From positions 19,490-83,489 of the forward strand of contig PNAG01000028.1 in assembly GCA_003169845.1 (NCBI GenBank): 64,000 bases of DNA, in the 5' to 3' direction. A model generated the notes under the pieces. That model was not told where the DNA came from, ran no database searches, and worked only from the letters and a program-made list of their open reading frames with translations. Origin of the DNA: Candidatus Dormiibacterota bacterium (GTDB lineage: Bacteria; Chloroflexota; Dormibacteria; Dormibacterales; Dormibacteraceae). A program made the position numbers and the translations under genes. Positions 2,941 to 63,025 of this stretch are shown in pieces; position 1 is the first letter of the stretch, and each line of letters opens with the position of its first letter.

Positions 2941-4179
2941 TTAGATTTTCACCACTTCGCGAAACGACTTTAACGTGGGTTCTATTTCCACGCGGCGCGA
3001 ATGACCGTTGGCCGTGGCGAGCACATCTGCCGTCTTCAGGCCGTGCCCGGTGACATAGGCGACCACGACCTCGTCGCCATTCCAGCGTCCCGCCCTGGCC
3101 AGCTTGGCCAGCACACTGATGGTCACCCCGCCGGCGGTCTCCGTGAAGATTCCCTCGGTGCGGGCGAGCAGCCGGATGCCCGCGACGATCTCCTCCTCGG
3201 TGACCGCCTCGACCACGCCACCCGTCTCCAGGGCGATCCGGTTCACGTACATGCCGTCAGACGGGTTGCCGATCGCGATCGAGCGGGCGATGGTGTTCGG
3301 CTTGACCGGCAGCACCCGCTCGGGCGTGTCGGACTTGAACGCGTTGTAGACCGGGGCGCAGCCAAGCGCCTGGGCGCCGGTGAACTTTGGAACACGGTCT
3401 TCGCGGACCAGCCCGTACTCCACCAACTCCCTCGCGGCCTGGCGGTGCCGCACGAACTGGCAGCCGCTGGCGATCGGAATGATGATCTCGTCCGGCAGCT
3501 TCCACCCGAGCTGCTCCGCGGTCTCGAACGTCAGGGTCTTGGAGCCTTCGGCGTAGAAGGGCCTGATGTTGATGTTGCAGAACGCCCAGGGAGTCGACTC
3601 GACGAGCTGGCTGCACAACCGGTTGACCTCGTCGTAGTTGCCCCGCACCGCGACCACGTTGGGGTCGAAGACGCCAATGCTCACGACTTTCGCCGGCTCG
3701 AGGTCCACCGGGATGAACACAAAGCATTCGAGCCCTGCGCGCGCCGCATAAGCCGCGACCGCGTTGGCGAGGTTTCCAGTGGACGCGCACGCGATCGTCT
3801 CGAAGCCATGGGCGCGAGCCCAGCTGATGGCGACCGAGACCACCCGGTCCTTGAAGGAGTTGGTCGGGTTCATGCTGTCGTTTTTCAGGTAGAGGTTTCG
3901 CAGGCCGAGCTCGGCGCCCAGCCGCTCCGCCTTGACCAGAGGCGTCATGCCCTCGCCAAGCGTCACCACCGGCACCGAATCCTCGACGGGAAGCAGGTCA
4001 CGGTATCGCCACATCGACTTGGGCCCTTTCTCGATCCGGTCCCGGCTGACGACCTTCTTCAGCGCCGCCTGGTCGTAAACGACGTCAAGCGGCCCAAAGC
4101 ACATCTCGCAGACATGCGTCGCCTGCAACTCATATTCGGCGCCGCACTCGCGGCAACGCATCCCGAGAAGTTTGGACAC
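2941..4179 (-). CDS. thrC: Threonine synthase family PLP enzyme with N-terminal Cys4 zinc ribbon
   Basis: 412 aa with CRECG..CEMC ribbon, PLP-lysine motif NPTNSFKDR, and fold-type II PLP core. Confidence 0.85.
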   Translation of the reverse strand: MSKLLGMRCRECGAEYELQATHVCEMCFGPLDVVYDQAALKKVVSRDRIEKGPKSMWRYRDLLPVEDSVPVVTLGEGMTPLVKAERLGAELGLRNLYLKNDSMNPTNSFKDRVVSVAISWARAHGFETIACASTGNLANAVAAYAARAGLECFVFIPVDLEPAKVVSIGVFDPNVVAVRGNYDEVNRLCSQLVESTPWAFCNINIRPFYAEGSKTLTFETAEQLGWKLPDEIIIPIASGCQFVRHRQAARELVEYGLVREDRVPKFTGAQALGCAPVYNAFKSDTPERVLPVKPNTIARSIAIGNPSDGMYVNRIALETGGVVEAVTEEEIVAGIRLLARTEGIFTETAGGVTISVLAKLARAGRWNGDEVVVAYVTGHGLKTADVLATANGHSRRVEIEPTLKSFREVVKI

Positions 4180-7194: not shown

Positions 7195-8294
7195 GCGGTG
7201 ACCGTCTGCTTCCAGTGCGTGATCGAGTCGAGGAACTCGAGGTCGACCTCGACGCCAAGCCCTGGTCCGGCCGGCACGTCCAACCGGCCCTCGCGAAGGA
7301 CAAAAGCCGCGGTGATGTCGCGGTGGTAGTAGCGGTCAGACGCCGAGGTGTCGCCGGGTAGGGTGAAGTTCGGCATCGCGGCCATCGCCACGTTGCCGGC
7401 GCGGCCGATCCCCGTCTCCAGCATCCCGCCCATCCACACGGGCAACCCGTACTCGGCGCAGAGATCGTGGATCCGGCGAGCCTCCAGGTAGCCCCCGACG
7501 CGGCCCGGTTTGATGTTGATGATCCGGCACGCCCCGAGCTGGATCGCGTCCGCCGCCGCCTGCGCCGAGGTGATCGACTCGTCGAGGCAGATCGGCGTCC
7601 GCACCAGGGTCGCCAGCTCAGCATGAGCGAGCACTTGCTCCTCGGGGAGCGGCTGTTCGATCAGCAGCAGGTCGAACGGGTCCAGCTCCGCGAGATGGGC
7701 GGCGTCCGACAGCGAGTAAGCCGTGTTGGCGTCCACCTGCAGGGGCACGCTGCCGAACCGCTCGCGCACCGCCCGCACCGGCTCCACGTCCCAGCCCGGC
7801 TTGATCTTCAGCTTGATCCGCCGGTAGCCCTGTTCGACGTAGTCGCCCACCGTCTCCAGCAGCTCCGGGATCGACTTGTGGATGCCGACCGAGACGCCAG
7901 AGTCGACGGCGGGGCGCACCGCGCCGAAGTACGCGGCGAACGATTCGCCTCGGGCGCGCAGCTGCGCGTCGAGGATCGCCATCTCGATCGCGGACTTCGC
8001 CATCTGGTGCCCGTGCACCGGCCGCAGCAGCCGCCCCACGTCCTCGGCCTCGATGCGCGCTTGGTCCATCAGCCGCGGGAGCAGGTGATGGACCAGGACG
8101 TGCTGGCAGCCGTCCACGTACTCCGACGAGTAGGTCGGTTCTTCGCCCGCCACGCACTCACCCCAACCCTCGCCGCCAGTGGTGATCGCCTTCAACAACA
8201 GGATGTCGCGCTCGGTCTGCACGCCGAACGAGGTCTCGAAAGGCGCGACCAGCGACAGGTGGATGCGGCGCATCTCGACCGCGCGAAGCTTCAT
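7191..8294 (-). CDS. Enolase-superfamily o-succinylbenzoate synthase / N-succinylamino-acid racemase
   Basis: 367 aa with a KLKIKPGWD (KxK) motif and the metal-ligand D/E/D spacing typical of the MenC/NSAR subgroup. ATGA overlap with the upstream gene. Confidence 0.8.
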   Translation of the reverse strand: MKLRAVEMRRIHLSLVAPFETSFGVQTERDILLLKAITTGGEGWGECVAGEEPTYSSEYVDGCQHVLVHHLLPRLMDQARIEAEDVGRLLRPVHGHQMAKSAIEMAILDAQLRARGESFAAYFGAVRPAVDSGVSVGIHKSIPELLETVGDYVEQGYRRIKLKIKPGWDVEPVRAVRERFGSVPLQVDANTAYSLSDAAHLAELDPFDLLLIEQPLPEEQVLAHAELATLVRTPICLDESITSAQAAADAIQLGACRIINIKPGRVGGYLEARRIHDLCAEYGLPVWMGGMLETGIGRAGNVAMAAMPNFTLPGDTSASDRYYHRDITAAFVLREGRLDVPAGPGLGVEVDLEFLDSITHWKQTVTA

Positions 8295-22528: not shown

Positions 22529-22593
22529 TTTCCCTCCCCCGCCAGGGGGAGGGAAGGGGTGGGGGGCGACCTGAGCCCGCTACCCCCTCCGCC
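22529..22593 (+). repeat. G/C-rich palindromic repeat, copy A
   Basis: Perfect 10 bp arms TCCCTCCCCC-GCCA-GGGGGAGGGA, followed by AGGGGTGGGGGGCGACCTGAGC. Lies between convergent genes and supplies the last codons of the FeS subunit. Confidence 0.75.
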
Positions 22594-23449
22594 TTTGCAC
22601 GAACTCGAACCCGAATCGTCCTTTCACGCACAGGTGTCCCTCGGTGACGCTGTGGTCGAGCGGCGAGGTCACTTTCACGATCGAGTTGTCCTGCACGTGA
22701 AGCTCGAGCATGCAGCCGACCCCGCAGTAAGGGCACACCGTCTCGGTCACCGTCTGCTGTGACTCGTCCCAGGTGCCGGCCTGGCGCATGTCGTACTCGC
22801 TCTTGAACATCAGCGCGCCGGTCGGACACACGCCGATGCAGTTTCCGCAGTAGACGCAGGCGGATTCGGGCAGCGGCGCGGTGAACTCCGTCGCGATGTG
22901 AGCGTCGAAGCCGCGGCCCGCCACACCGATCGCGAAAGTGTTCTGAGCATCTGCGCCACACGCCTCGACGCACTTGTAGCAGAGGATGCAGCGCGAGTAG
23001 TCGCGGACATAGAGGTCGTTGTCAATCTTCACCGGCTGCGCAACCGTCGCGACGTTTTCGCCAAAGCGCTCCGGGGTAGCTCCGTACCGCCGCATCCATC
23101 CATGGACCTGCGGCGAGCACAGCGACATGTCAACCGATGACGCGAGGAGCTCGAGCACGAGGCGCCGGCTGTGACGCACCCGCTCCGAGTCGGTCTGGAT
23201 CTTCATGCCCGCCTCGACCGTGCGCGAGCAGGCCGGGACCAGCACGCGCGACCCCTCCACCTCGACCACGCAAACACGGCAGACGTTGACCGGCGTCAGC
23301 GTCTCGAGCTGGCACAGAGTCGGCGTGTCGATGCGAAGCTGCCGGCACGCGTCGAGGATGGTCGCGCCCTCGAGCACGTCCATCTCCTGGCCGTCGATGC
23401 TCACCTTGACCAACCGCTTCGGCAGACCGACGAATACTCGCTCAGCCAT
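22580..23449 (-). CDS. Formate dehydrogenase Fe-S subunit (N-terminal NuoG-like part of FdhA)
   Basis: 289 aa carrying a 2Fe-2S ferredoxin domain, two 4Fe-4S motifs and the molybdopterin-type 4Fe-4S domain. Motifs: CRVC.., CILCYKCVEAC, CVYCGNCIGVCP, then CPYCGVGC...LCVKGRFGFEF. The ORF stops where the catalytic domain normally begins. Confidence 0.8.
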   Translation of the reverse strand: MAERVFVGLPKRLVKVSIDGQEMDVLEGATILDACRQLRIDTPTLCQLETLTPVNVCRVCVVEVEGSRVLVPACSRTVEAGMKIQTDSERVRHSRRLVLELLASSVDMSLCSPQVHGWMRRYGATPERFGENVATVAQPVKIDNDLYVRDYSRCILCYKCVEACGADAQNTFAIGVAGRGFDAHIATEFTAPLPESACVYCGNCIGVCPTGALMFKSEYDMRQAGTWDESQQTVTETVCPYCGVGCMLELHVQDNSIVKVTSPLDHSVTEGHLCVKGRFGFEFVQRRRG

Positions 23450-25232
23450 TGATCACCTTGAGCTGTGTGAGTCCCGACGCGATCGCGTTCGCCGCCGTCT
23501 GGCCCAGCCCACAGATCGACGCATCGCGCATCGCCTGCGCGATGTCGCTCAGAAGGCTCATGTCGGAGTCGCGTGCCTCTCCGTTGCGATCGCTGAGCAG
23601 CCGGTGCAGGACCTCTTCCTGCCGCACCGTGCCGACGCGACAGGGCACGCACTGCCCGCACGACTCATCGCGGAAAAACCGCGCGATGCGAAGCAGGATC
23701 TGCTTCACGTCGGCGGAGTCGTCGAGAACGATCACGGCGCCGGATCCAAGGGTCGCCCCGATCGCGCGCGTCCCCTCGAAGCTGAGCGGGACGTCGAGCT
23801 GCCGCTCGGTGACGAACGAACCGGCCGCTCCGCCGAGCAGCACCGCTTGCAGGCTGTGGCCGTCGCGCAGGCCGCCGGCGAGGTCGATCAGCGCCCGCAG
23901 CGTCGTGCCCATGGGGACCTCGTAGAGGCCAGGTTCGCGTACGTGGCCCGAGAGGCAGAAAAGCCGCGTCCCGGTGGAGTCGGGAGTGCCGGTCGCCGCA
24001 AAAGCGGCTCCTCCCTCGACGACGATGTCCAGCACGTTGACCAGCGTCTCCACGTTGTTGACGAGCGTCGGCTTGCCAAAGAGACCCGCCTGCACCGGGA
24101 ACGGCGGCTTGTTGCGCGGCTCGCCGCGCTTTCCCTCGATCGAGTTGAAAAGCGCAGTCTCCTCGCCGCATATGTAGGCTCCCGCGCCCCGGCGGACCTC
24201 GATGTCGCAATCTAGAAATCCACGCGCGCGAGCCTGGTCGATAGCGTTTTCGATCCGACGCCTCGCCAGCGGATACTCACCTCGGACGTACAGGTAGCCC
24301 TTCTCACACCCGGTGGCAAACGCGGCGATAGTCATCCCCTCGATCACAGCGAATGGATCACGCTCCATCAGCTCGCGGTCCTTGAAGGTTCCGGGTTCGG
24401 ACTCGTCCGCGTTGCACACGATGTAGTGAGGGCGGACCGGGGCTTTCGACACGGAATCCCACTTGCGCCCGGTTGGGAACGCCGCACCTCCTCGGCCGAG
24501 CAGCTTCGCTTCCGTCACCTGGCGGATGACGCCTTCAGGACCGAGCTCGATCGCCCGCCGCAGCGCGGCGTAGCCGCCATGCTCGCGGTAGCTGTCGATG
24601 CTCTCGGGATCGACGACACCAATCCGCCGCAAGAGCTTGCGTGGACGGTCAGGCAGCGCGGGGACTTCTGCTTGAGGCCAATCGCTTCCACGCAGGATGT
24701 CCTGCGCCACGTCGATGGTGAGGGGCGCCACCTGGCGCTCGTCGTGAGCTGCTCCCGCACGCTCCACCAGAGCCGCCGGTGCTCGGTCGCACAGGCCGAG
24801 ACAGGGGCTGCGATGCCACGTCTTGCCCGCCGGACCGGCGGTCTTTTCGAGCGCCTCGCACAGGGCGTCGGCGCCCGCGCACTTGCAGGCGATGTCATCG
24901 CAGACGTGAAGCACGAGGGGCGGCCTTTCGTCGAGCGCAAAGCGTCCGTAGAAGCTCACGACTCCGTAGGCCTCTGCCGGGGGGATCGACAACCTGCGGC
25001 ATGCGTACTCCAGTCCGCCACGGCTGACCCAGCCGACTCTGTCCTGGATCGCGTGAAGCACCGGGAGCAGCAGCGGGCGCCGAGACCGCGCGGCGGCGCC
25101 GCCGAAGCCGACGTGGTCGTCCTCCGGCCGGCGCGTCCCACCCTCCCAGAGCGAAGCGGGGTCGCCGAGCAAGCCGTCGACCGCCGCGATCTCCTCGGCC
25201 GTCGGTGGCCCCCCGGTGGTCCGGATGTCCAC
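23442..25232 (-). CDS. NAD-linked formate dehydrogenase diaphorase subunit (NuoE-like + NuoF-like fusion)
   Basis: 596 aa with an N-terminal thioredoxin-like 2Fe-2S part (VCDDIACKC...CLGLCD). The NuoF FMN/NADH core follows (GRGGAAFPTGRKW, ESCGQCVPCR). Confidence 0.85.
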   Translation of the reverse strand: MDIRTTGGPPTAEEIAAVDGLLGDPASLWEGGTRRPEDDHVGFGGAAARSRRPLLLPVLHAIQDRVGWVSRGGLEYACRRLSIPPAEAYGVVSFYGRFALDERPPLVLHVCDDIACKCAGADALCEALEKTAGPAGKTWHRSPCLGLCDRAPAALVERAGAAHDERQVAPLTIDVAQDILRGSDWPQAEVPALPDRPRKLLRRIGVVDPESIDSYREHGGYAALRRAIELGPEGVIRQVTEAKLLGRGGAAFPTGRKWDSVSKAPVRPHYIVCNADESEPGTFKDRELMERDPFAVIEGMTIAAFATGCEKGYLYVRGEYPLARRRIENAIDQARARGFLDCDIEVRRGAGAYICGEETALFNSIEGKRGEPRNKPPFPVQAGLFGKPTLVNNVETLVNVLDIVVEGGAAFAATGTPDSTGTRLFCLSGHVREPGLYEVPMGTTLRALIDLAGGLRDGHSLQAVLLGGAAGSFVTERQLDVPLSFEGTRAIGATLGSGAVIVLDDSADVKQILLRIARFFRDESCGQCVPCRVGTVRQEEVLHRLLSDRNGEARDSDMSLLSDIAQAMRDASICGLGQTAANAIASGLTQLKVING

Positions 25233-38652: not shown

Positions 38653-38706
38653 CAGGTGTACCTCCAGGACCGTACTGAAGCCCCGGCCCCAGATCGCAGT
38701 CTATGC

Positions 38707-38795
38707 CTCCCTCCCCCGCCAGGGGCGGGGTCGGGTAAGGGGCCGACGGCCCGCAGAACCTCTCCCTCCTCCGCCAGGGTGGGGGCCGGGGACCC
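38707..38795 (+). repeat. G/C-rich palindromic repeat, copy C (two tandem modules)
   Basis: CCTCCCTCCCCCGCCAGGGGCGGGGTCGGGTAAGGGG and CTCTCCCTCCTCCGCCAGGGTGGGGGCCGGGGACC, in the whiA / E1-beta divergent intergenic region. Confidence 0.7.
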
Positions 38796-39812: not shown

Positions 39813-41046
39813 GCGCTCTAGCAAGGGAAACCGCCCCCCAGCCCAGCCCTCCCCCTCGCGGGTGAGGGAGACATACCCAACTATCTCCCCAGCCGAATAC
39901 GCGATCCGGCGCCAGGCCGTGGCCGCGGGGATGGAGGCGGCCGGGCTCGACGCGATCTGCGTCTTCTACCCGGCGCGGGTCGCCTACCTGACCGGCTTCC
40001 ACCACATTCCCACGGAGCGCCCCATCGTGCTGGTGCTCGGTCCGAAGACATCCGCCATCCTGGTGGTGCCTGCGGTCGAAAAGGAGCACGCCGAGTCCTC
40101 CACGTCCCTGGACCGGGTCGACGTCTATTTCGAGTACCCGGGCGCCCAGCACCCGATGGAGCACGTGTCCGCGATCCTCGGCGAAATCGGCGCCAGGTCC
40201 GCCCGCACGGGTGCGGACCACGACGGCTACATCCCTTATTGGGGCTACCGGGGTCCGCCCCTCAGCGAACTGCTCGGTCAGCGACTCTTCGATGCCGAGC
40301 CGATCATCGAATCGCTGCGCCGCGTGAAGTCACCAACCGAGATCGCCTGCATACAGCTGAGCTGCGACTGGGCGGTGCGCGCCCACCGTCGCATGCAGGC
40401 CGCAATCGAGACCGGCAAGACGGAGATGGAGATCTATGCGCCGGTGGTCACCGCGACACTTGCGGAGATGCTGCACGAAATGCCGGGCTGGCGGCCGCGC
40501 TCATTCGCGGGCAATGGCCTGGAGGCGATGTTCGTGGGCGGCCGCTCTACGGCGATGCCGCACGGTTTCGTGCGCGGGCACGGCGTGCAGCAAGGCGACG
40601 TGCTGGTGAGCGGGGCGAGCGCGGACATCGACGGGTACCTGAGCGAGCTAGAGCGGACGATGATCGTGGGTGAACCCACACCAGACCAGGTGCGCGGTTT
40701 CGAAGCCATGCTCGCTCTGCAGACGCTGGCGATCGAGACTATGGCGCCAGGCGTGCCGGCGGGCGAGGTCGAGCTGGCCACCGTCCGCCTGGCCGAAGAG
40801 CTCGGCGTCGCGGACAAGCTGCGGCACCACGTCGGGCACTCGATCGGGCTCGAGGGCCACGAAGCCCCCTTTCTCGACCGAGGCGAGGAAACCGTGCTCG
40901 AAGCCGGGATGGTTTTCACTGTCGAACCCGGCGTCTACATGAAGGATGTCGGCGGCTTCCGGCACTCCGACACGGTCGTCATCACCGAAGACGGCTGCCG
41001 TGTCATGACCGACTACCCGCGGGCGCTGAAAGACCTCGTGATTTAA
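39799..41046 (+). CDS. M24-family metallopeptidase (Xaa-Pro dipeptidase/creatinase-like)
   Basis: Creatinase-like N-terminal domain and pita-bread metal ligands (HGVQQGD..SGASADIDGY, HSIGLEGHE, TVEPG). The first ~25 codons of the TTG-started ORF are repeat copy D, so the true start is probably downstream (e.g. GTG 39919 or a non-canonical codon). Confidence 0.8.
   Translation: MPRTERSSKGNRPPAQPSPSRVRETYPTISPAEYAIRRQAVAAGMEAAGLDAICVFYPARVAYLTGFHHIPTERPIVLVLGPKTSAILVVPAVEKEHAESSTSLDRVDVYFEYPGAQHPMEHVSAILGEIGARSARTGADHDGYIPYWGYRGPPLSELLGQRLFDAEPIIESLRRVKSPTEIACIQLSCDWAVRAHRRMQAAIETGKTEMEIYAPVVTATLAEMLHEMPGWRPRSFAGNGLEAMFVGGRSTAMPHGFVRGHGVQQGDVLVSGASADIDGYLSELERTMIVGEPTPDQVRGFEAMLALQTLAIETMAPGVPAGEVELATVRLAEELGVADKLRHHVGHSIGLEGHEAPFLDRGEETVLEAGMVFTVEPGVYMKDVGGFRHSDTVVITEDGCRVMTDYPRALKDLVI
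39831..39871 (-). repeat. G/C-rich palindromic repeat, copy D (inverted orientation)
   Basis: The reverse complement reads GTCTCCCTCACCCGCGAGGGGGAGGGCTGGGCTGGGGGGCGG. Located between the E1-beta stop and the conserved part of the M24 peptidase. Confidence 0.65.
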
Positions 41047-59416: not shown

Positions 59417-60682
59417 TCAGGGTAGGGCGAGGATCATGGCCTCCACGATCGTCCCTTCCTTGATTCCTTGATCTCCTGGCGGGATGCGCACCAGCGCGTG
59501 TGCTCCCGCCAGCGACATGAGGCGCGACGAGGACTGGGAGCCGGTTGATACGCCGACCAGATCCCGACCTTCGCGTCGCAGGGTGACGCGCTGGTACTCG
59601 GTGCGGTCAGCTGTTGCTCGGGCGTCGTAGCCGAGGCGGACCGGCAGGGTGGGGCGTTGAAGCTGTGAGTAGCCCTGCATCTTTCGCAGCGCCGGCCGGA
59701 CGAAAACCTCGAAGGTGACGAGCGACGAAACGGGAAAACCGGGCAGACCGAACGCGACTTTTTCCCTCCCCCCATCGGGTGGAGGGCCAGGGTGAGGGGC
59801 TGAAACTCGCATCCGGGCGGGGATGGTCGCGAAAGTGAATGGCTTCCCCGGCTTCAGCTTGACCCGCCCGACGTGAACGTCGCCGAGGGACTCGAGCAGC
59901 GGCTTGATGAGATCGTGGGTGCCGACCGAGACACCGCCCGACGTGACCAGGACGTCCGCTCCCTCGAGTGCATCGACGACGAGGCGCCTCAGCGCTTCGG
60001 GCTCGTCCGGACCGATGCCGAGCAGTCGCACCTCTGCACCGGCGTCGCGCAGCGCCGCGAGGAGAGCCCACCGGTTGGAATCGGGGATCTGTCCGCGCGC
60101 AGGCTTCTTCCCCACCTCGACGAGCTCGTCGCCGGTGGACAGCAGCGCGACGCGTGGGCGGCGCCCGACCGGCAGGTCTGCCCGACCGAGCGCTGCCGCC
60201 AGCCCGATCTCCGCCGCGCCAAGCACCGTGCCGGCCCGGAGCACTTCCTCTCCGGCGCGCAGGTCGGCGCCGGGTGCGTGAAAGTTCTGTCCCGCCACGA
60301 GACCCGCCGGGATTTTGACGACCTCCCCGCTCAACTCGACGTCCTCGACCATCACGACACAATCCGTGCCGTCGGGCAGAACCCCTCCCGTCAGGATGCG
60401 GATCGCCGTGCCCGGCTGAACCTTGCTGTCGAACGGCCGACCGGCCGCCGACTCCCCGACCACCCGCAGCGACTTCCCACCGTCCACGGCCCGGACGGCA
60501 TACCCGTCGACAGCGCTCGAAGGAAAGGCGGGAAGCGGCGCCGAAGCCACGAGTTCCTCGGCCAGCACCCGGCCGGGACAGTCGCTAAGAGGAACCCGTT
60601 CCGCACCCAGGACAGGCGCGTGCGCGAGCACCAGCGCAGCGGCGGCGCCGGCATCGACCAGCGGGTAGGCGGAGGCCCTCAC
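59417..60682 (-). CDS. moeA: Molybdopterin molybdotransferase MoeA (with ~18 aa in-frame repeat-derived insertion)
   Basis: 421 aa with motifs SAVDGYAV, STGDELV, TSGGVSVG, KPGKP....GLPGFPVSS. Confidence 0.88.
   Translation of the reverse strand: MRASAYPLVDAGAAAALVLAHAPVLGAERVPLSDCPGRVLAEELVASAPLPAFPSSAVDGYAVRAVDGGKSLRVVGESAAGRPFDSKVQPGTAIRILTGGVLPDGTDCVVMVEDVELSGEVVKIPAGLVAGQNFHAPGADLRAGEEVLRAGTVLGAAEIGLAAALGRADLPVGRRPRVALLSTGDELVEVGKKPARGQIPDSNRWALLAALRDAGAEVRLLGIGPDEPEALRRLVVDALEGADVLVTSGGVSVGTHDLIKPLLESLGDVHVGRVKLKPGKPFTFATIPARMRVSAPHPGPPPDGGREKVAFGLPGFPVSSLVTFEVFVRPALRKMQGYSQLQRPTLPVRLGYDARATADRTEYQRVTLRREGRDLVGVSTGSQSSSRLMSLAGAHALVRIPPGDQGIKEGTIVEAMILALP
59759..59802 (+). repeat. G/C-rich palindromic repeat, copy F (inside moeA coding sequence)
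   Basis: TTTTTCCCTCCCCCCATCGGGTGGAGGGCCAGGGTGAGGGGCTG. It shares the TTTTTCCC(C)TCCCCC head with copy G, which lies 900 bp away. Confidence 0.65.
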
Positions 60683-60683
60683 T

Positions 60684-60741
60684 TTTTCCCCTCCCCCGCA
60701 AGGGAGAGAGTGGCCCGAAGGGCCGGGTGGGGAGACGACCC
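60684..60741 (+). repeat. G/C-rich palindromic repeat, copy G
   Basis: TTTTTCCCCTCCCCCGCAAGGGAGAGAGTGGCCCGAAGGGCCGGGTGGGGAGACGACCCCC, between the ABC transporter stop and the moeA start. Confidence 0.65.
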
Positions 60742-60742
60742 C

Positions 60743-63025
60743 CTATTCGTAGCGAAGGGCTCGAGCCGGGTCTTGTCTGGCGGCCCGCAACGCGGGAAGA
60801 AGTCCGCTGACCGTGCTGAGCACGACCGCCACCACCAGTCCCGCCGCCACAACCCAGAAGTCGGTCCTGAAAACGTCGAAACCGGTCCCCGCCACCGACT
60901 GCGTGAGCCGGTCGACGACAGCGTTGCCGAGCCGGCCCAGCCCGACCGCGATGAGAATCCCGACCAGGCCCCCCGCGAGCCCGATGAACGCGGCTTCCGC
61001 AACGAACATCTGCAGCACGTCACGCCGCCGCGCACCGAGGGCCTTCAGCACGCCGATCTCCTTAGTGCGTTCCAGGACCGCGGTGTACATCGTGTTCGCG
61101 ATGCCCAGACAGGCCAGCAGAAGAGCCACCAACGCAAGGCCCAGCAGCGCTACGCGCATCTTTCCGAGCAGGTCCTCGAAGCTGCGGAACTGGTCGCCGA
61201 ATGTCTGGGCCTGGAACCCGAGCGCCTCCACCCGCTGCTGCAGACTCCCGACCGCCAGGCCCGAATCGGCCAGGAGCGTGATGGTCGAAAACTCGCCGCC
61301 CTTCCAACCGTTTGCCCTGGCCAGTAGCGCCCAGTAGTCGCGCTCGGTGGCGTACGGCGCCATGCCACCCGGAGCTCCGGCCGGCATGGCATTGCCCGAC
61401 ACGATGCCCACGACGATCAGCTTCAGGTCGATCGGGCGAGTGACGGGATTACGCGTCACTCCGGGCACCATGAGCACGCCGGAGGCGGCGGTGTACACCA
61501 CCTGCGTGCCGATCGCGCCGCGTGCGGACAGGAATCCCAGCGCGGTCGCTTCGCTGTCGGTGAGCAGCACCTCGCCGGCAGAGTCGGATCGAGGCAGGCG
61601 GCCGGCACTCAGGACCGGCATCACGCTCGACGACTCGATCGGCGCAAGCGAGACGAGCGCGCCTGAAAGAGCGGGCGGCGGGGTGCCGGCCGATCCCGCG
61701 GGCGTTCCCGTGGTGAAGGTTCCACTCATCGACAGCTGGCCCCAGGCGGCGCTCACGTGGGGTTGCGCGGCGAGCGTTGTCAGGGTGGCGGCATCGAACG
61801 CGCCGGAACGCGAGTCGGCCGCCGGGTAGACCTCGACCTGGTGCACCTGGCTGGTGACGAGCGCGGGGGCGCTCAGAGCGCCCTGGAGCCCACCCGCGAG
61901 CGCGACGATCAGGCTCATCGCGGCGATGCCGATCGCGACCCCGGTCGTGGTCAGCGTGGTCCGCAGGGGCCGGCGTCCGGCGCTGCCAAGGCCAACCTTG
62001 AGCGTGTCGCGCCAATGCAGGCGCGCGGCCGGATCGACCGGCTCTTGCTTGCGCACAGTCGGGTTGCCGGCATCCAGCTCGATCGCCCGGCCGTCGATCA
62101 TCCTGACCACCCGGCGCGCGCGCCGAGCCACCTCAGGGTCGTGGGTGACCAGCACGACGGTCGCCCCCCGGCGGTTGAGGTCCTCGAGCAGGTTGAGAAC
62201 GCCTTCGCCCGCCGCCGAGTCCAGGCTTCCCGTGGGTTCGTCGGCGAGGATCAGGCCCGGCCGGTTGGCCAGTGCTCGAGCCACCGCAACCTTCTGCTGC
62301 TCGCCGCCTGATAGCAGGCGGGCGCGGGTGCGGGCGCGATGTTCGAGACCGACGAGCGCGAGCAGGTGCCGGGCACGCCGGCGCCTTTCTTGTAGCTCCA
62401 CCCCCGCCAGCGTGAGAGGCAGGGCGACGTTGTCCTCGACGGTCATGGAAGGGATCAGGTTGAAGGTCTGGAAGATCGTGCTCACGCGCTGGAGGCGGTA
62501 GTCGGCGAGGTCGTGCTCGGAGAGCTCTCCCAGAGGAAGCCCGGCGCCGTAGACGTGGCCGGAGGTCGGGCGGTCGAGGCCGCCCATCAGCGACAGCAAG
62601 GTCGTCTTGCCGCAGCCCGAAGGGCCGACGACCGAGACGAACTCGCACGGCCCAATCTCCAGGGACACGTTCCTCAGAGCGCTCACGTGCATCTCGTCGT
62701 TGCCACCGAACTCTCGCGAGACGGAGTCGAGACGGAGGCCCACCGCCTGGCCGAGAAGATCCTTGAAGTCGTCCGGGACGGCCACCGAGGGCGGGAGCAG
62801 GGTCGCGTGGCTCACCTCGGTCTCGAGCTCAGGCAGCACAGCCATACTGACCGCGTCGGACTCGGCGATCGGCGCCTGCGTCAGCTCGACGCCGCTGCCG
62901 TTCCCGTTCCCGCCGGCGGCATGCTCGAGGGCGGCGGCGGCTTCGCGGCGCGCCCGGCGGCGGCGGCGCTTTTTGGTGCCGCTGGAGTCGCCTGGATCCT
63001 CGGCTAGAGTTGCCACCCCGTCCAT
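60743..63025 (-). CDS. MacB-type fused ABC transporter (N-terminal ATPase + FtsX-like permease)
   Basis: Walker [10 protein letters not shown], signature LSGGEQQ, Walker B LILADEPT, and a C-terminal FtsX 4-TM module. The first ~80 aa are low complexity, so the true start may be internal. Confidence 0.85.

What the first reader, a model, noticed from the sequence alone, without database searches (positions are those of the whole stretch)
59759..59802. A repeat copy is inserted in frame inside moeA and is translated as an extra loop
- **Normal spacing.** MoeA normally has only a few residues between the KPGKP..F strand and the GLPGNPVS motif.
- **What is seen here.** The sequence reads KPGKPFTFATIPARMRVSAPHPGPPPDGGREKVAFGLPGFPVSS.
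- **Source of the extra segment.** The segment ..SAPHPGPPPDGGREK.. is the reverse-strand translation of repeat copy F (TTTTTCCCTCCCCCCATCGGGTGGAGGGCCAGGGTGAGGGGCTG).
- **Relation to copy G.** Copy F shares its head with copy G, which lies just upstream of moeA.
- **Reading frame.** The frame is preserved and there is no stop codon, so the element appears to have been domesticated as a roughly 18 aa surface insertion.
- **Precedent.** This is analogous to the Rickettsia palindromic elements known to insert in frame into protein-coding genes.
Basis: partly seen in the sequence, partly recalled or inferred. Interest (0 to 1): 0.7.

Follow-up and report, generated by a model that had tools for sequence, protein, structure and literature searches.

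The report
Triplex repeat inserted in-frame in moeA
A 36-base copy of a known, very widespread bacterial DNA repeat (BoxC/PIT/TMECO, able to fold into a triple helix) sits in frame inside the molybdenum-cofactor gene moeA. It lengthens one hairpin turn of the protein by 17 amino acids, and the same turn has been hit again and again, in both orientations, across the uncultured soil phylum Dormibacterota.

Summary
**Observation:** confirmed. moeA (59417-60682, minus strand) carries 57 nt (59762-59818) where close orthologs have 6 nt. That is +17 aa, in frame, with no stop codon.

**What the repeat is:** its core (59764-59799) belongs to a repeat family with at least five intergenic copies in the window. 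The family is already described: the BoxC/PIT/'TMECO' intrastrand-triplex repeat (Holder 2015, PMC4666352). There it was reported as always intergenic in E. coli.

**Distribution of the insertion:**
- Of 71 species-level loci, 41 keep the minimal turn (FATLPxGKxAFG) and 29 carry expansions of +2 to +35 aa, all in frame.
- The expansions contain the repeat in sense (10 species) or antisense (18 species) orientation, in at least two (probably three) structural variants, with eroded and nested forms.
- The ancestral state is empty, and 13-17 state changes are needed on bootstrap trees.

**Domestication:** not supported. The inserted peptide evolves faster than the rest of MoeA and is predicted to be disordered, so it is a tolerated passenger.

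**Elsewhere:** the repeat occurs in contigs of 38-76% G+C and in viral contigs. About 4-6% of sampled copies are candidates for in-frame intragenic insertion, for example in ValRS.

**Verdict:** The mechanism of insertion remains inferred.

The parts
59417..60682 (-). moeA (MoeA/Glp-like molybdopterin molybdotransferase), 421 aa, GTG start
   Evidence: It is an ORF with Pfam domains MoeA_N, MoCF_biosynth and MoeA_C. NCBIfam gives MoeA 354 bits and Glp 326 bits, both below the curated cut-offs. The gephyrin E domain is the best solved relative.
59762..59818 (-). In-frame extra segment: 57 nt (19 codons, ARMRVSAPHPGPPPDGGRE) in place of the 2-codon turn (xG) of the minimal loop, net +17 aa
   Evidence: This follows from comparison with the empty-site orthologs FATLPxGKxAFG. 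Coordinates and translation were checked. It lies between predicted strands 280-287 and 308-311, and residues 292-305 have pLDDT below 50.
59764..59799 (+). Copy F, the core of the triplex-motif repeat, antisense to moeA. C-arm 59764-59772 CCCTCCCCC; loop 59773-59777 CATCG; G-arm 1 59778-59786 GGTGGAGGG; spacer 59787-59789 CCA; G-arm 2 59790-59799 GGGTGAGGGG
   Evidence: It fits the published TMECO pattern CCCTCNCCC N3-6 GGGNGAGGG N3 GGGNGAGGG with one mismatch. nhmmer gives E = 2.5e-10 with F in the seed and E = 0.01 without any moeA copy in the seed.
59800..59818 (.). 19-nt filler of unknown origin between the repeat's G-arm 2 and the Pro codon of the original turn (CTGAAACTCGCATCCGGGC)
   Evidence: It is not part of the family consensus. 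It differs between allele classes.
60683..60742 (+). Copy G, a variant with an inner GGCCC-GAA-GGGCC hairpin. It fills the entire 60-nt spacer between the stop codon of the upstream ABC-transporter gene (60743-60745) and the moeA GTG (60680-60682)
   Evidence: Sequence evidence is. Orthologs L006, L009, L056, L016 and L067 have stop and start directly abutting (TAG/TAA-GTG), so the inserted unit is exactly delimited and has no target duplication. nhmmer gives E = 0.0026-0.0046.
22529..22570 (+). Intergenic family copy, near-consensus C/G/G subtype
   Evidence: It lies just outside the ORF 22580-23452 (-). The hairpin folds at -43.6 kcal/mol, z = -3.65.
34582..34658 (+). Intergenic long-form copy: C-arm, then a ~50-nt inner module, then G-arm 2
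   Evidence: It is homologous to the expanded moeA loop of L060 (local score 93 against a shuffle maximum of 45). It lies between ORFs 33804-34622 and 34674-35639.
38705..38747 (+). Intergenic family copy, followed by a partial copy at 38761-38792, in a divergent intergenic region
39828..39873 (-). Intergenic family copy
   Evidence: See (I2).

Best explanation
**What it is.** Copy F is a member of the BoxC/PIT/TMECO family of G/C-rich repeats. Each repeat has a pyrimidine arm, a complementary purine arm and a second purine arm able to form an intrastrand purine-motif triplex. Copy F lies antisense inside moeA.

**Effect on the gene.** With about 21 nt of flanking filler, it replaces the two-codon turn of a beta-hairpin in the MoCF-biosynthesis domain by 19 codons. 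The frame is kept and there is no stop. MoeA is therefore made with a 17-aa longer, Pro/Gly-rich and probably disordered excursion.

**Status of the insert.** It is a tolerated passenger, not a domesticated module.

**Recurrence.** In Dormibacterota this turn is a recurrent landing and retention site.
- The empty turn is ancestral.
- Copies have entered several times, in both orientations and in at least two (probably three) structural variants.
- They then erode or grow by in-frame indels, which is the kind of local instability reported around these repeats in E. coli.

**Shown here:**
- family membership;
- in-frame presence and absence among orthologs;
- both orientations;
- the empty state as ancestral;
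- faster evolution of the insert than of the rest of the protein;
- no target duplication at the neighbouring copy G.

**Inferred:**
- translation of the insert;
- its exposure at the protein surface;
- the route of entry. No transposase, terminal inverted repeats or target duplication were found. I therefore favour copying by template switching, gene conversion or repair at a site whose codons (CTN CCC NNN GGN AAG) themselves form a small YYCCC...GGGRR palindrome resembling the base of the repeat's hairpin.
For: **Family membership**
- Copy F matches the published pattern with one mismatch.
- The window holds at least five intergenic copies.

**Presence and absence among orthologs**
- 41 of 71 species are minimal, 1 is +1 aa and 29 are expanded. 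The expanded loops span +2 to +35 aa and all are in frame.
- 51 of the 120 closest protein clusters are expanded.

**Both orientations**
- Sense example, L063: CTT|CCCTCTCCCCATCGGGGAGAGGGCCGGGGTGAGGGGCTG|AAG.
- The window copy is antisense.

**Structural variants inside the loop**
- Short form, long form (L060, matching window 34582-34658, score 93 vs shuffle maximum 45) and, more weakly, G-form (L008, matching copy G, score 36 vs 30).

**Ancestral state and number of events**
- The root state is empty in 100 of 100 bootstrap trees.
- 13-17 parsimony changes are needed.

**Relaxed constraint on the insert**
- Insert identity is 0.57-0.81 against 0.85-0.91 for the rest of the protein.
- P0001 vs P0003 gives 52% against 87%, Fisher p = 1.4e-4.

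**Position in the protein**
- The insert lies between two predicted strands and has low confidence.
- It replaces the DIDGV turn of gephyrin in the alignment.

**Site specificity**
- The neighbouring genes of the 79 loci hold no intragenic copy, while 13 loop copies score E < 0.01.

**No target duplication**
- Copy G is delimited as TAG|60 nt|GTG, with no duplication.

**Not an artefact**
- The identical protein is found in three samples.

**Other in-frame copies of the same repeat**
- ValRS, an MFS transporter and a PUFA-synthase-like protein.
- Phage genes.
Against: - Copy F itself is a somewhat degenerate copy. It has one Watson-Crick mismatch and two non-canonical triads, and scores only E = 0.01 with the independent profile.
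- Translation of the insert is inferred from frame conservation, not observed.
- The tree is a single-gene NJ tree from MAG contigs. Recombination between alleles, or near-precise loss, could lower the number of true gains.
- The structure model is poor overall (mean pLDDT 55). Distance from the active site or dimer interface was not measured.
- Part of the apparent 'hot spot' could simply reflect a high genome-wide insertion flux plus tolerance. The intergenic stop/start junction upstream of moeA is also occupied in at least 4, probably about 9, of some 32 loci read by eye.
- The proposed entry mechanism has no direct support.
Confidence: 0.85

Rival explanations
1. Domesticated loop. The inserted peptide has acquired a function at the surface of MoeA/Glp, for example a Pro-rich docking site, and is kept by selection.
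For: - The insert is kept in frame in many lineages.
- One clade of 11 species all retain some insert.
- WIN and P0002 (90% identical overall) share a 91%-identical insert.
Against: - The loop takes 19 length states, in both orientations and in different reading frames of the repeat, with remnants of only +2 to +6 aa.
- The insert evolves faster than the rest of the protein in all five allele classes.
- The closest relatives lack it.
- It is predicted disordered.
Confidence: 0.08
2. Function at the nucleic-acid level. The hairpin or triplex inside moeA is kept because it modulates moeA expression (ribosome pausing, mRNA stability, polymerase arrest). Alternatively, it acts as a local generator of variation in this loop.
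For: - Many loop copies keep near-perfect arm complementarity.
- The mRNA around copy F is predicted to fold with z = -2.0.
- A second copy sits exactly at the moeA start, with the only Shine-Dalgarno-like sequence inside its hairpin.
- The repeats are linked to local instability in E. coli.
Against: - Most species, including the closest ones, do without it.
- The copies decay.
- Earlier work cited in PMC4666352 found no promoter or terminator activity and no in vivo effect on polymerases.
- According to the same paper, purine-motif triplexes do not form in RNA.
Confidence: 0.1
3. Mechanistic hot spot. The turn is hit often because an enzyme or a repair pathway targets its sequence (the mini-palindrome CTNCCC-NNN-GGNAAG), and not merely because insertions are tolerated there.
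For: - Both orientations join the repeat's C-arm end to a CTT/YTT on the respective strand.
- Empty sites such as L006 (CTTCCCGACGGGAAG) and L001 (CCCTCCCCCAGGGAAAG) mimic the hairpin base.
- There are no intragenic copies in the neighbouring genes.
- Family copies are generally preceded by two pyrimidines.
Against: - Many empty sites in clades that carry inserts read LD/LE/LS rather than LP.
- There is no conserved target beyond YY.
- No recurrent transposase-like neighbour was found in 240 loci.
- Occupancy of the turn is similar to that of the nearby intergenic junction.
Confidence: 0.3
4. Not an insertion. Either the long loop is ancestral and was lost repeatedly, or its likeness to the repeat is chance or an assembly error.
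For: Parsimony alone cannot separate three gains from three losses within the window's own small clade.
Against: - Outgroups, basal Dormibacterota, gephyrin and E. coli MoeA all have short turns.
- The root state is empty in 100 of 100 bootstraps.
- Empty sites share the consensus LPxGK, which deletions would not recreate.
- The loop DNA matches a cross-phylum repeat at E down to 5e-8.
- The identical gene is found in three samples.
Confidence: 0.02

Closest known systems
BoxC / PIT (potential intrastrand triplex) / TMECO repeats of E. coli and other bacteria (Holder et al. 2015, PMC4666352, and earlier work cited there)
   Same: - The three-block sequence is the same: CCCTCNCCC N3-6 GGGNGAGGG N3 GGGNGAGGG.
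- Many dispersed copies per genome, singly or as inverted doublets.
- No link to transposons.
- Flanks prone to small deletions and to mutated copies.
   Different: - In E. coli MG1655 the repeat was reported as 'always located intergenically'. Here a copy is inside a coding sequence, in frame.
- The host is Dormibacterota, with roughly one copy per 10 kb in this window.
- The commonest local subtype is CCCTCCCCC/GGGGGAGGG/GGGTGGGGGG.
- Longer variants with inner modules occur.
Rickettsia palindromic elements (RPE; Ogata et al. 2000 and 2002, as summarised in PMC10969869)
   Same: - Selfish palindromic repeats inserted in frame into unrelated housekeeping genes.
- They are read through.
- Orthologs without the insert exist.
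- The insert is compatible with the protein fold.
   Different: - RPEs are about 100-150 bp, are restricted to Rickettsia and encode a conserved peptide of their own.
- This repeat is 36-44 nt, G/C-rich, found across phyla and read in several frames and both orientations.
- Recurrent hits at one site were not a feature of RPEs.
REP / REPIN elements mobilised by RAYT transposases
   Same: - Short imperfect palindromes, highly abundant.
- Often found as inverted doublets with a ~25-30 nt spacer (seen in metagenome copies).
- No target duplication.
   Different: - No RAYT or other recurrent transposase was found next to 240 sampled copies.
- The third (triplex) arm has no counterpart in REPs.
- REPs are extragenic by definition.
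Prokaryotic MITEs that fuse in frame with genes (QMITE1 of Coxiella, intragenic ERIC, Anabaena MITEs; PMC10969869, PMC5896051)
   Same: Small non-autonomous repeats that sometimes lie in frame inside ORFs.
   Different: - MITEs have terminal inverted repeats and target-site duplications and derive from insertion sequences.
- Copy G has neither.
G/C-rich hairpin clusters in fungal mitochondrial coding regions, including the 'byp' elements bypassed by ribosomes (from my own knowledge; not checked in the library)
   Same: Short G/C-rich hairpins that invade coding sequences.
   Different: - Bypassed elements need not keep the frame.
- Here all 29 length variants keep the frame and avoid the TGA-containing frame, so read-through is the simpler reading.

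Membership tests
BoxC/PIT/TMECO intrastrand-triplex repeat | Sequence pattern 5'-CCCTCNCCC N3-6 GGGNGAGGG N3 GGGNGAGGG-3', with at most one stem mismatch (PMC4666352) | tested here: met
   Copy F reads CCCTCCCCC CATCG GGtGGAGGG CCA GGGTGAGGG(G), with one mismatch.
BoxC/PIT/TMECO intrastrand-triplex repeat | Many dispersed, highly similar copies in one genome | tested here: met
   There are at least six copies in 64 kb. The pattern matches 18 times against 1.76 expected.
BoxC/PIT/TMECO intrastrand-triplex repeat | Third arm compatible with an antiparallel purine-motif triplex (G*G-C, A*A-T, T*A-T) | tested here: inconclusive
   In 138 metagenome copies the three variable positions are linked: T/A/A 123, C/G/G 13 (0.1 expected) and mixed 2. 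The linked third-arm base is the one facing the variable pair. This fits a triplex, but two clonal subfamilies would give the same result. Copy F itself has 2 non-canonical triads out of 10 (by inspection).
BoxC/PIT/TMECO intrastrand-triplex repeat | Forms a stable triplex in vitro (CD/NMR) | not testable with these tools
   This needs oligonucleotide biophysics.
BoxC/PIT/TMECO intrastrand-triplex repeat | Intergenic location (described as invariable in E. coli MG1655) | tested here: not met
   Copy F is inside moeA, while the other window copies are intergenic. This is a habit of the family in E. coli rather than a defining sequence feature, so membership stands.
BoxC/PIT/TMECO intrastrand-triplex repeat | Raised local sequence variability around copies | tested here: met
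   The one turn shows 19 loop-length states, with eroded and nested forms. L070 has a ~130-nt out-of-frame deletion spanning the site.
Rickettsia palindromic elements | In-frame insertion in ORFs whose orthologs lack it | tested here: met
   
Rickettsia palindromic elements | Sequence family of ~100-150 bp with its own conserved encoded peptide, in Rickettsia | tested here: not met
   The core is 36 nt and has a different sequence. It is read in several frames and both orientations. The host is Dormibacterota.
REP/REPIN-RAYT | Cognate RAYT (Y1 transposase) gene associated with the repeats | tested here: inconclusive
   Clustering of 4992 ORFs within 2.5 kb of copies in 240 loci gave only phage structural proteins, an ABC ATPase and a DUF559 endonuclease-domain protein as recurrent neighbours. 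Whole genomes were not available.
MITE | Terminal inverted repeats and target-site duplication | tested here: not met
   Copy G is delimited as TAG|60 nt|GTG against orthologs with TAG-GTG, with no duplication. The ends TTTTTCCCC... and ...GACGACCCC are not inverted repeats.

The most novel reading that the evidence does not exclude
The moeA turn would show how BoxC/PIT/TMECO repeats spread, which has been unknown since the 1990s. Its codons (CTN CCC NNN GGN AAG) form a small YYCCC...GGGRR palindrome that mimics the base of the repeat's hairpin. Repeats would be copied into such mimic sites without a transposase, by structure- or microhomology-directed template switching or repair. Because the mimic is a palindrome, they could enter in either orientation. 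The filled and empty moeA alleles would then be a natural assay for this process, and the repeats would be a general source of in-frame loop variation in proteins.
Probability: 0.2. Interest if true: 0.8.

Novelty: new variant of a known kind. Interest (0 to 1): 0.6.

Why it matters
- **Coding regions are not off limits.** The repeat family has been known for 30 years as an intergenic curiosity with no known function or means of spread. This case shows that it also enters coding sequences in frame. It does so in an essential-pathway enzyme here, and in ValRS, transporters and phage genes elsewhere.
- **A useful set of alleles.** One beta-hairpin turn has collected many independent copies across a phylum. 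That gives a series of filled, empty, eroded and nested alleles with exact junctions, which is the kind of material needed to work out how the repeats move and how they destabilise their surroundings.
- **A possible in vivo signal for the triplex.** The linkage between all three arms across very different organisms may be a trace of selection for the triplex, which the biophysical work could not show in vivo.
- **Annotation.** Pro/Gly-rich extra loops in proteins from G/C-rich uncultured bacteria may simply be translated repeats.

Tried and rejected
- **Rfam.** A gathering-threshold scan of the window found no family.
- **G-quadruplex reading.** I first considered the four G-tracts as a quadruplex. 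I set this aside once the literature search by sequence string identified the element as the described triplex motif.
- **A mobilising enzyme.** All-against-all clustering of ORFs near 240 copies found no recurrent transposase.
- **A moeA paralog in the window.** This was suggested by repeat D16. The other ORF is o-succinylbenzoate synthase and the similarity is chance.
- **Structure prediction.** With 45 close homologs the model was poor (mean pLDDT 55). It was used only for the two strands flanking the insert, and I ran no fold search on it.
- **Target-site motif.** Only two pyrimidines before the C-arm are conserved in 280 copies.
- **Terminator role.** The T-run lies 5' of the hairpin on the repeat strand and becomes an A-run after it on the other strand. 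Neither strand therefore looks like an intrinsic terminator (by inspection).
- **Literature on Dormibacterota repeats.** Nothing was found.
Full report
**1. The observation**

It lies inside a 421-aa ORF on the minus strand, 59417-60682, whose product contains KPGKPFTFATIPARMRVSAPHPGPPPDGGREKVAFGLPGFPVSS.
- The ORF is a MoeA-family molybdopterin molybdotransferase.
  - It has Pfam MoeA_N, MoCF_biosynth and MoeA_C.
  - Its best solved relatives are the gephyrin E domain, Cnx1E and E. coli MoeA.
  - It scores below NCBI's cut-offs for both the MoeA and the Glp equivalogs.
- The closest database relatives are from Candidatus Dormibacterota MAGs.

**2. A real repeat family**

- The head motif and the hairpin pattern are strongly over-represented in the window: 5 matches against 0.30 expected, and 18 against 1.76.
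- The copies share a 9-10 nt pyrimidine arm, a short loop, the complementary purine arm, 2-3 nt, and then a second purine block. They lie at:
  - 22529-22570;
  - 38705-47, with a partial copy at 38761-92;
  - 39828-73 on the minus strand;
  - 34582-34658, a long form;
  - 60683-60742, copy G;
  - 59764-99, copy F.
- A GC3/ORF map puts every copy except F between genes.
- A profile built only from intergenic copies finds F at E = 0.01 in 587 kb. It finds the moeA-loop copies of other species at E between 5e-8 and 3e-3.

**3. Orthologs define the insertion**

- Among the 120 closest protein clusters (77-100% identity), 69 have the minimal loop FAT-LPxG-KxAFG and 51 have 11-28 extra residues at this one place.
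- I fetched the DNA of 79 species-representative loci.
  - The loop is readable in 71 Dormibacterota loci.
  - 41 are minimal, one is +1 aa and 29 are expanded by +2 to +35 aa.
  - Every length is a multiple of three.
- Against these, the window carries 57 nt (59762-59818, ARMRVSAPHPGPPPDGGRE) in place of two codons, a net gain of 17 aa.
  - The repeat core is 59764-59799.
  - 59800-59818 is filler of unknown origin.
- The identical protein is encoded on contigs from three JGI samples, so this is not an assembly artefact.

**4. Recurrent insertion in both orientations**

- The loop DNA of the other species is plainly the same repeat.
  - In L063 it is in the sense orientation: CTT|CCCTCTCCCCATCGGGGAGAGGGCCGGGGTGAGGGGCTG|AAG, read as PSPHRGEGRGEGL. 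It is 39/43 identical to copy F, which is antisense.
  - Ten species carry sense copies, 18 carry antisense copies and one (L020) could not be classified.
- Structural variants occur in the loop:
  - the short form;
  - the long form, whose homology is clear: L060's loop aligns with window 34582-34658 at score 93, against a shuffle maximum of 45;
  - a form with an inner hairpin like copy G in L008, L046 and L067. This link is weaker, with L008 against copy G scoring 36 against a shuffle maximum of 30.
- There are tandem or nested cases (L022, L012, L024, L064). There are also eroded remnants such as QGEGS, RAGEKE and PLQGGRER.
- On NJ trees of MoeA with the loop removed:
  - outgroups and basal lineages are empty;
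  - the root state is empty in 100 of 100 bootstraps;
  - 13-17 state changes are needed.
- Orientation alone requires at least two gains. The allele classes differ in junctions, filler and reading frame, which suggests roughly ten.
- This rests on a single-gene tree, so recombination or near-precise loss could lower the count.

**5. Translated and tolerated, not domesticated**

- No expanded loop breaks the frame or contains a stop. The sense copies avoid the frame in which GGGTGAGGGG gives TGA. Read-through is therefore the simplest reading, but it remains inferred.
- The one exception is L070. There a ~130-nt out-of-frame deletion removes the whole hairpin region.
- Within each of five allele classes the inserted peptide is less conserved than the rest of the protein: 0.57-0.81 against 0.85-0.91. 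P0001 vs P0003 gives 52% against 87%, p = 1.4e-4.
- The AlphaFold model is poor overall (mean pLDDT 55). It does place the insert between strands 280-287 and 308-311, with pLDDT below 50 at 292-305.
- In the gephyrin alignment the insert replaces the DIDGV turn.
- I did not measure its distance from the active site or the dimer interface.

**6. What the repeat is**

- A full-text search for the arm sequences found Holder et al. 2015 (PMC4666352).
- The family is BoxC, also called PIT or TMECO: 5'-CCCTCNCCC N3-6 GGGNGAGGG N3 GGGNGAGGG-3'.
  - It was found 3610 times in 262 proteobacterial genomes.
  - It forms a stable purine-motif intrastrand triplex in vitro.
  - It has 23 copies in E. coli MG1655, 'always located intergenically'.
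  - It is not associated with transposons, phages or plasmids.
  - Its flanks are unusually prone to small deletions and mutated copies.
- Copy F fits the pattern with one mismatch.
- The variability of the moeA turn is what that paper's 'instability' would look like when only in-frame outcomes survive.

**7. Wider distribution**

- The metagenome contigs range from 38% to 76% G+C and carry nearly identical copies.
- The three variable positions are tightly linked: T/A/A 123, C/G/G 13 against 0.1 expected, and mixed 2.
  - The linked base of the third arm is the one that would face the variable Watson-Crick pair in an antiparallel triplex.
  - This fits selection for the triplex. Two spreading subfamilies would explain it equally well.
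- Many copies come as tail-to-tail doublets.
- By an ORF and GC3 test, 6 of 138 metagenome copies and 9 of 148 viral-contig copies are candidates for lying in frame inside genes.
- Pfam confirmed three metagenome cases:
  - a valyl-tRNA synthetase whose catalytic domain is split by the insert (L094);
  - an MFS transporter (L119);
  - a PUFA-synthase-like protein (L167).
- In-frame insertion is therefore a minor but general habit of this family. I found no report of it.

**8. How it got there (inferred)**

- Copy G gives exact boundaries. Orthologs have the ABC-transporter stop abutting the moeA start (TAG/TAA-GTG). The window has 60 nt between them, with no target duplication and no terminal inverted repeats. 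That argues against a MITE.
- No recurrent transposase-like neighbour appeared among 4992 ORFs near 240 copies.
- In both orientations the repeat's C-arm end abuts a CTT/YTT of the host.
- Family copies are generally preceded by two pyrimidines.
- The empty turn (CTN CCC NNN GGN AAG) is itself a small palindrome that mimics the hairpin base, for example CTTCCCGACGGGAAG in L006.
- I therefore favour copying by template switching or repair at a mimic site. This has no direct support.
- A simple tolerance filter on a high insertion flux is a live alternative. The intergenic junction upstream of moeA is also occupied in at least 4, probably about 9, of some 32 loci, counted by eye.
- Against pure tolerance, the neighbouring genes in the 79 loci hold no intragenic copy.

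**9. Verdict**

- It is wrong on 'domesticated'.
- It is incomplete on identity. The repeat is a known triplex-motif family, not an RPE-like novelty.
- New here:
  - the intragenic, in-frame location of this family;
  - its presence in Dormibacterota and in viral contigs;
  - the recurrent use of one protein turn in both orientations.
- I rate it a new variant of a known kind, with interest 0.6.

Noticed in passing
window 60683-60742 (copy G) and 60680-60682 (moeA GTG): Copy G fills the whole spacer between the ABC-transporter stop and the moeA start. In orthologs L006, L009, L056, L016 and L067 the stop and start abut directly (TAG/TAA-GTG). The only Shine-Dalgarno-like sequence of the window's moeA (GGGGGAGGGG, 5 nt before the GTG) is the repeat's own arm, and it is paired in the predicted mRNA hairpin.
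   Followed up: partly
L004, L002, L064 (about 60-66 nt before the moeA start); also L023, L008, L024, L068, L063: The stop/start junction upstream of moeA is a second recurrent site for the same repeat family in other species. In L004, L002 and L064 the G-rich complement of the C-arm lies next to the start codon.
   Followed up: partly
L080-L199 (metagenome) and L200-L319 (IMG/VR): The 36-nt repeat core occurs nearly unchanged in contigs of 38-76% G+C and in at least 120 viral contigs.
   Followed up: partly
138 copies in L080-L199: The pyrimidine arm, the first purine arm and the second purine arm are linked three ways: T/A/A 123, C/G/G 13 against 0.1 expected, and mixed 2. The positions are those that would form one base triad in an antiparallel triplex.
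   Followed up: partly
L094:3819-6854 (-), L119:2-994 (-), L167:2958-8801 (-), L106, L100, L145; viral L200, L207, L211/L309, L241/L258, L244, L291, L298: Other candidate in-frame copies of the same repeat. One is a valyl-tRNA synthetase with its catalytic domain split at GWPDPE|ALSPPGRGLGEG...|LLARHYPNDVLISGFDILFFW. Others are an MFS transporter and a PUFA-synthase-like protein. L106, L100, L145 and the viral ORFs rest on the ORF/GC3 test only; L309's ORF is a portal protein by Pfam.
   Followed up: partly
L070 about 3760-3800: The moeA of this species representative has a ~130-nt deletion that removes the whole KPGKP...GLPGFPVSS hairpin region and shifts the frame. It is either a pseudogene or an assembly collapse, and it sits exactly at the repeat-prone site.
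   Followed up: no
window 34582-34658: This is a long-form variant of the repeat: C-arm, a ~50-nt inner module, then the second purine arm. It is homologous to the content of the expanded moeA loop of L060, and probably to those of P0008 and P0024.
   Followed up: partly
L002, L007, L011, L031, L038, L047 (record titles): Contigs carrying a moeA that is 72-82% identical to the window's are labelled Acidoferrum, Verrucomicrobiia, Eisenbacteria, Sulfotelmatobacter and even Nitrosotalea (an archaeon). These contigs are probably mis-binned in the MAGs.
   Followed up: no
L015 and L064, about 400-500 nt downstream of moeA: The tblastn match extends about 500 nt beyond the normal gene end because a second, out-of-frame stretch resembles the MoeA C-terminus. 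It may be a remnant duplicate of the 3' end.
   Followed up: no
L120:7854-9650 and six other loci: ORFs with a DUF559 (Vsr-like endonuclease) domain recur within 2.5 kb of repeat copies in 7 of 240 loci. I did not test whether this exceeds chance.
   Followed up: no
window 7842-7898 vs 59879-59935: This is a 57-nt direct repeat at 72% identity between moeA and another gene. That gene is o-succinylbenzoate synthase (MenC), and the match (GVSVG.H...LLE..GD) is a chance resemblance, not a paralog.
   Followed up: yes
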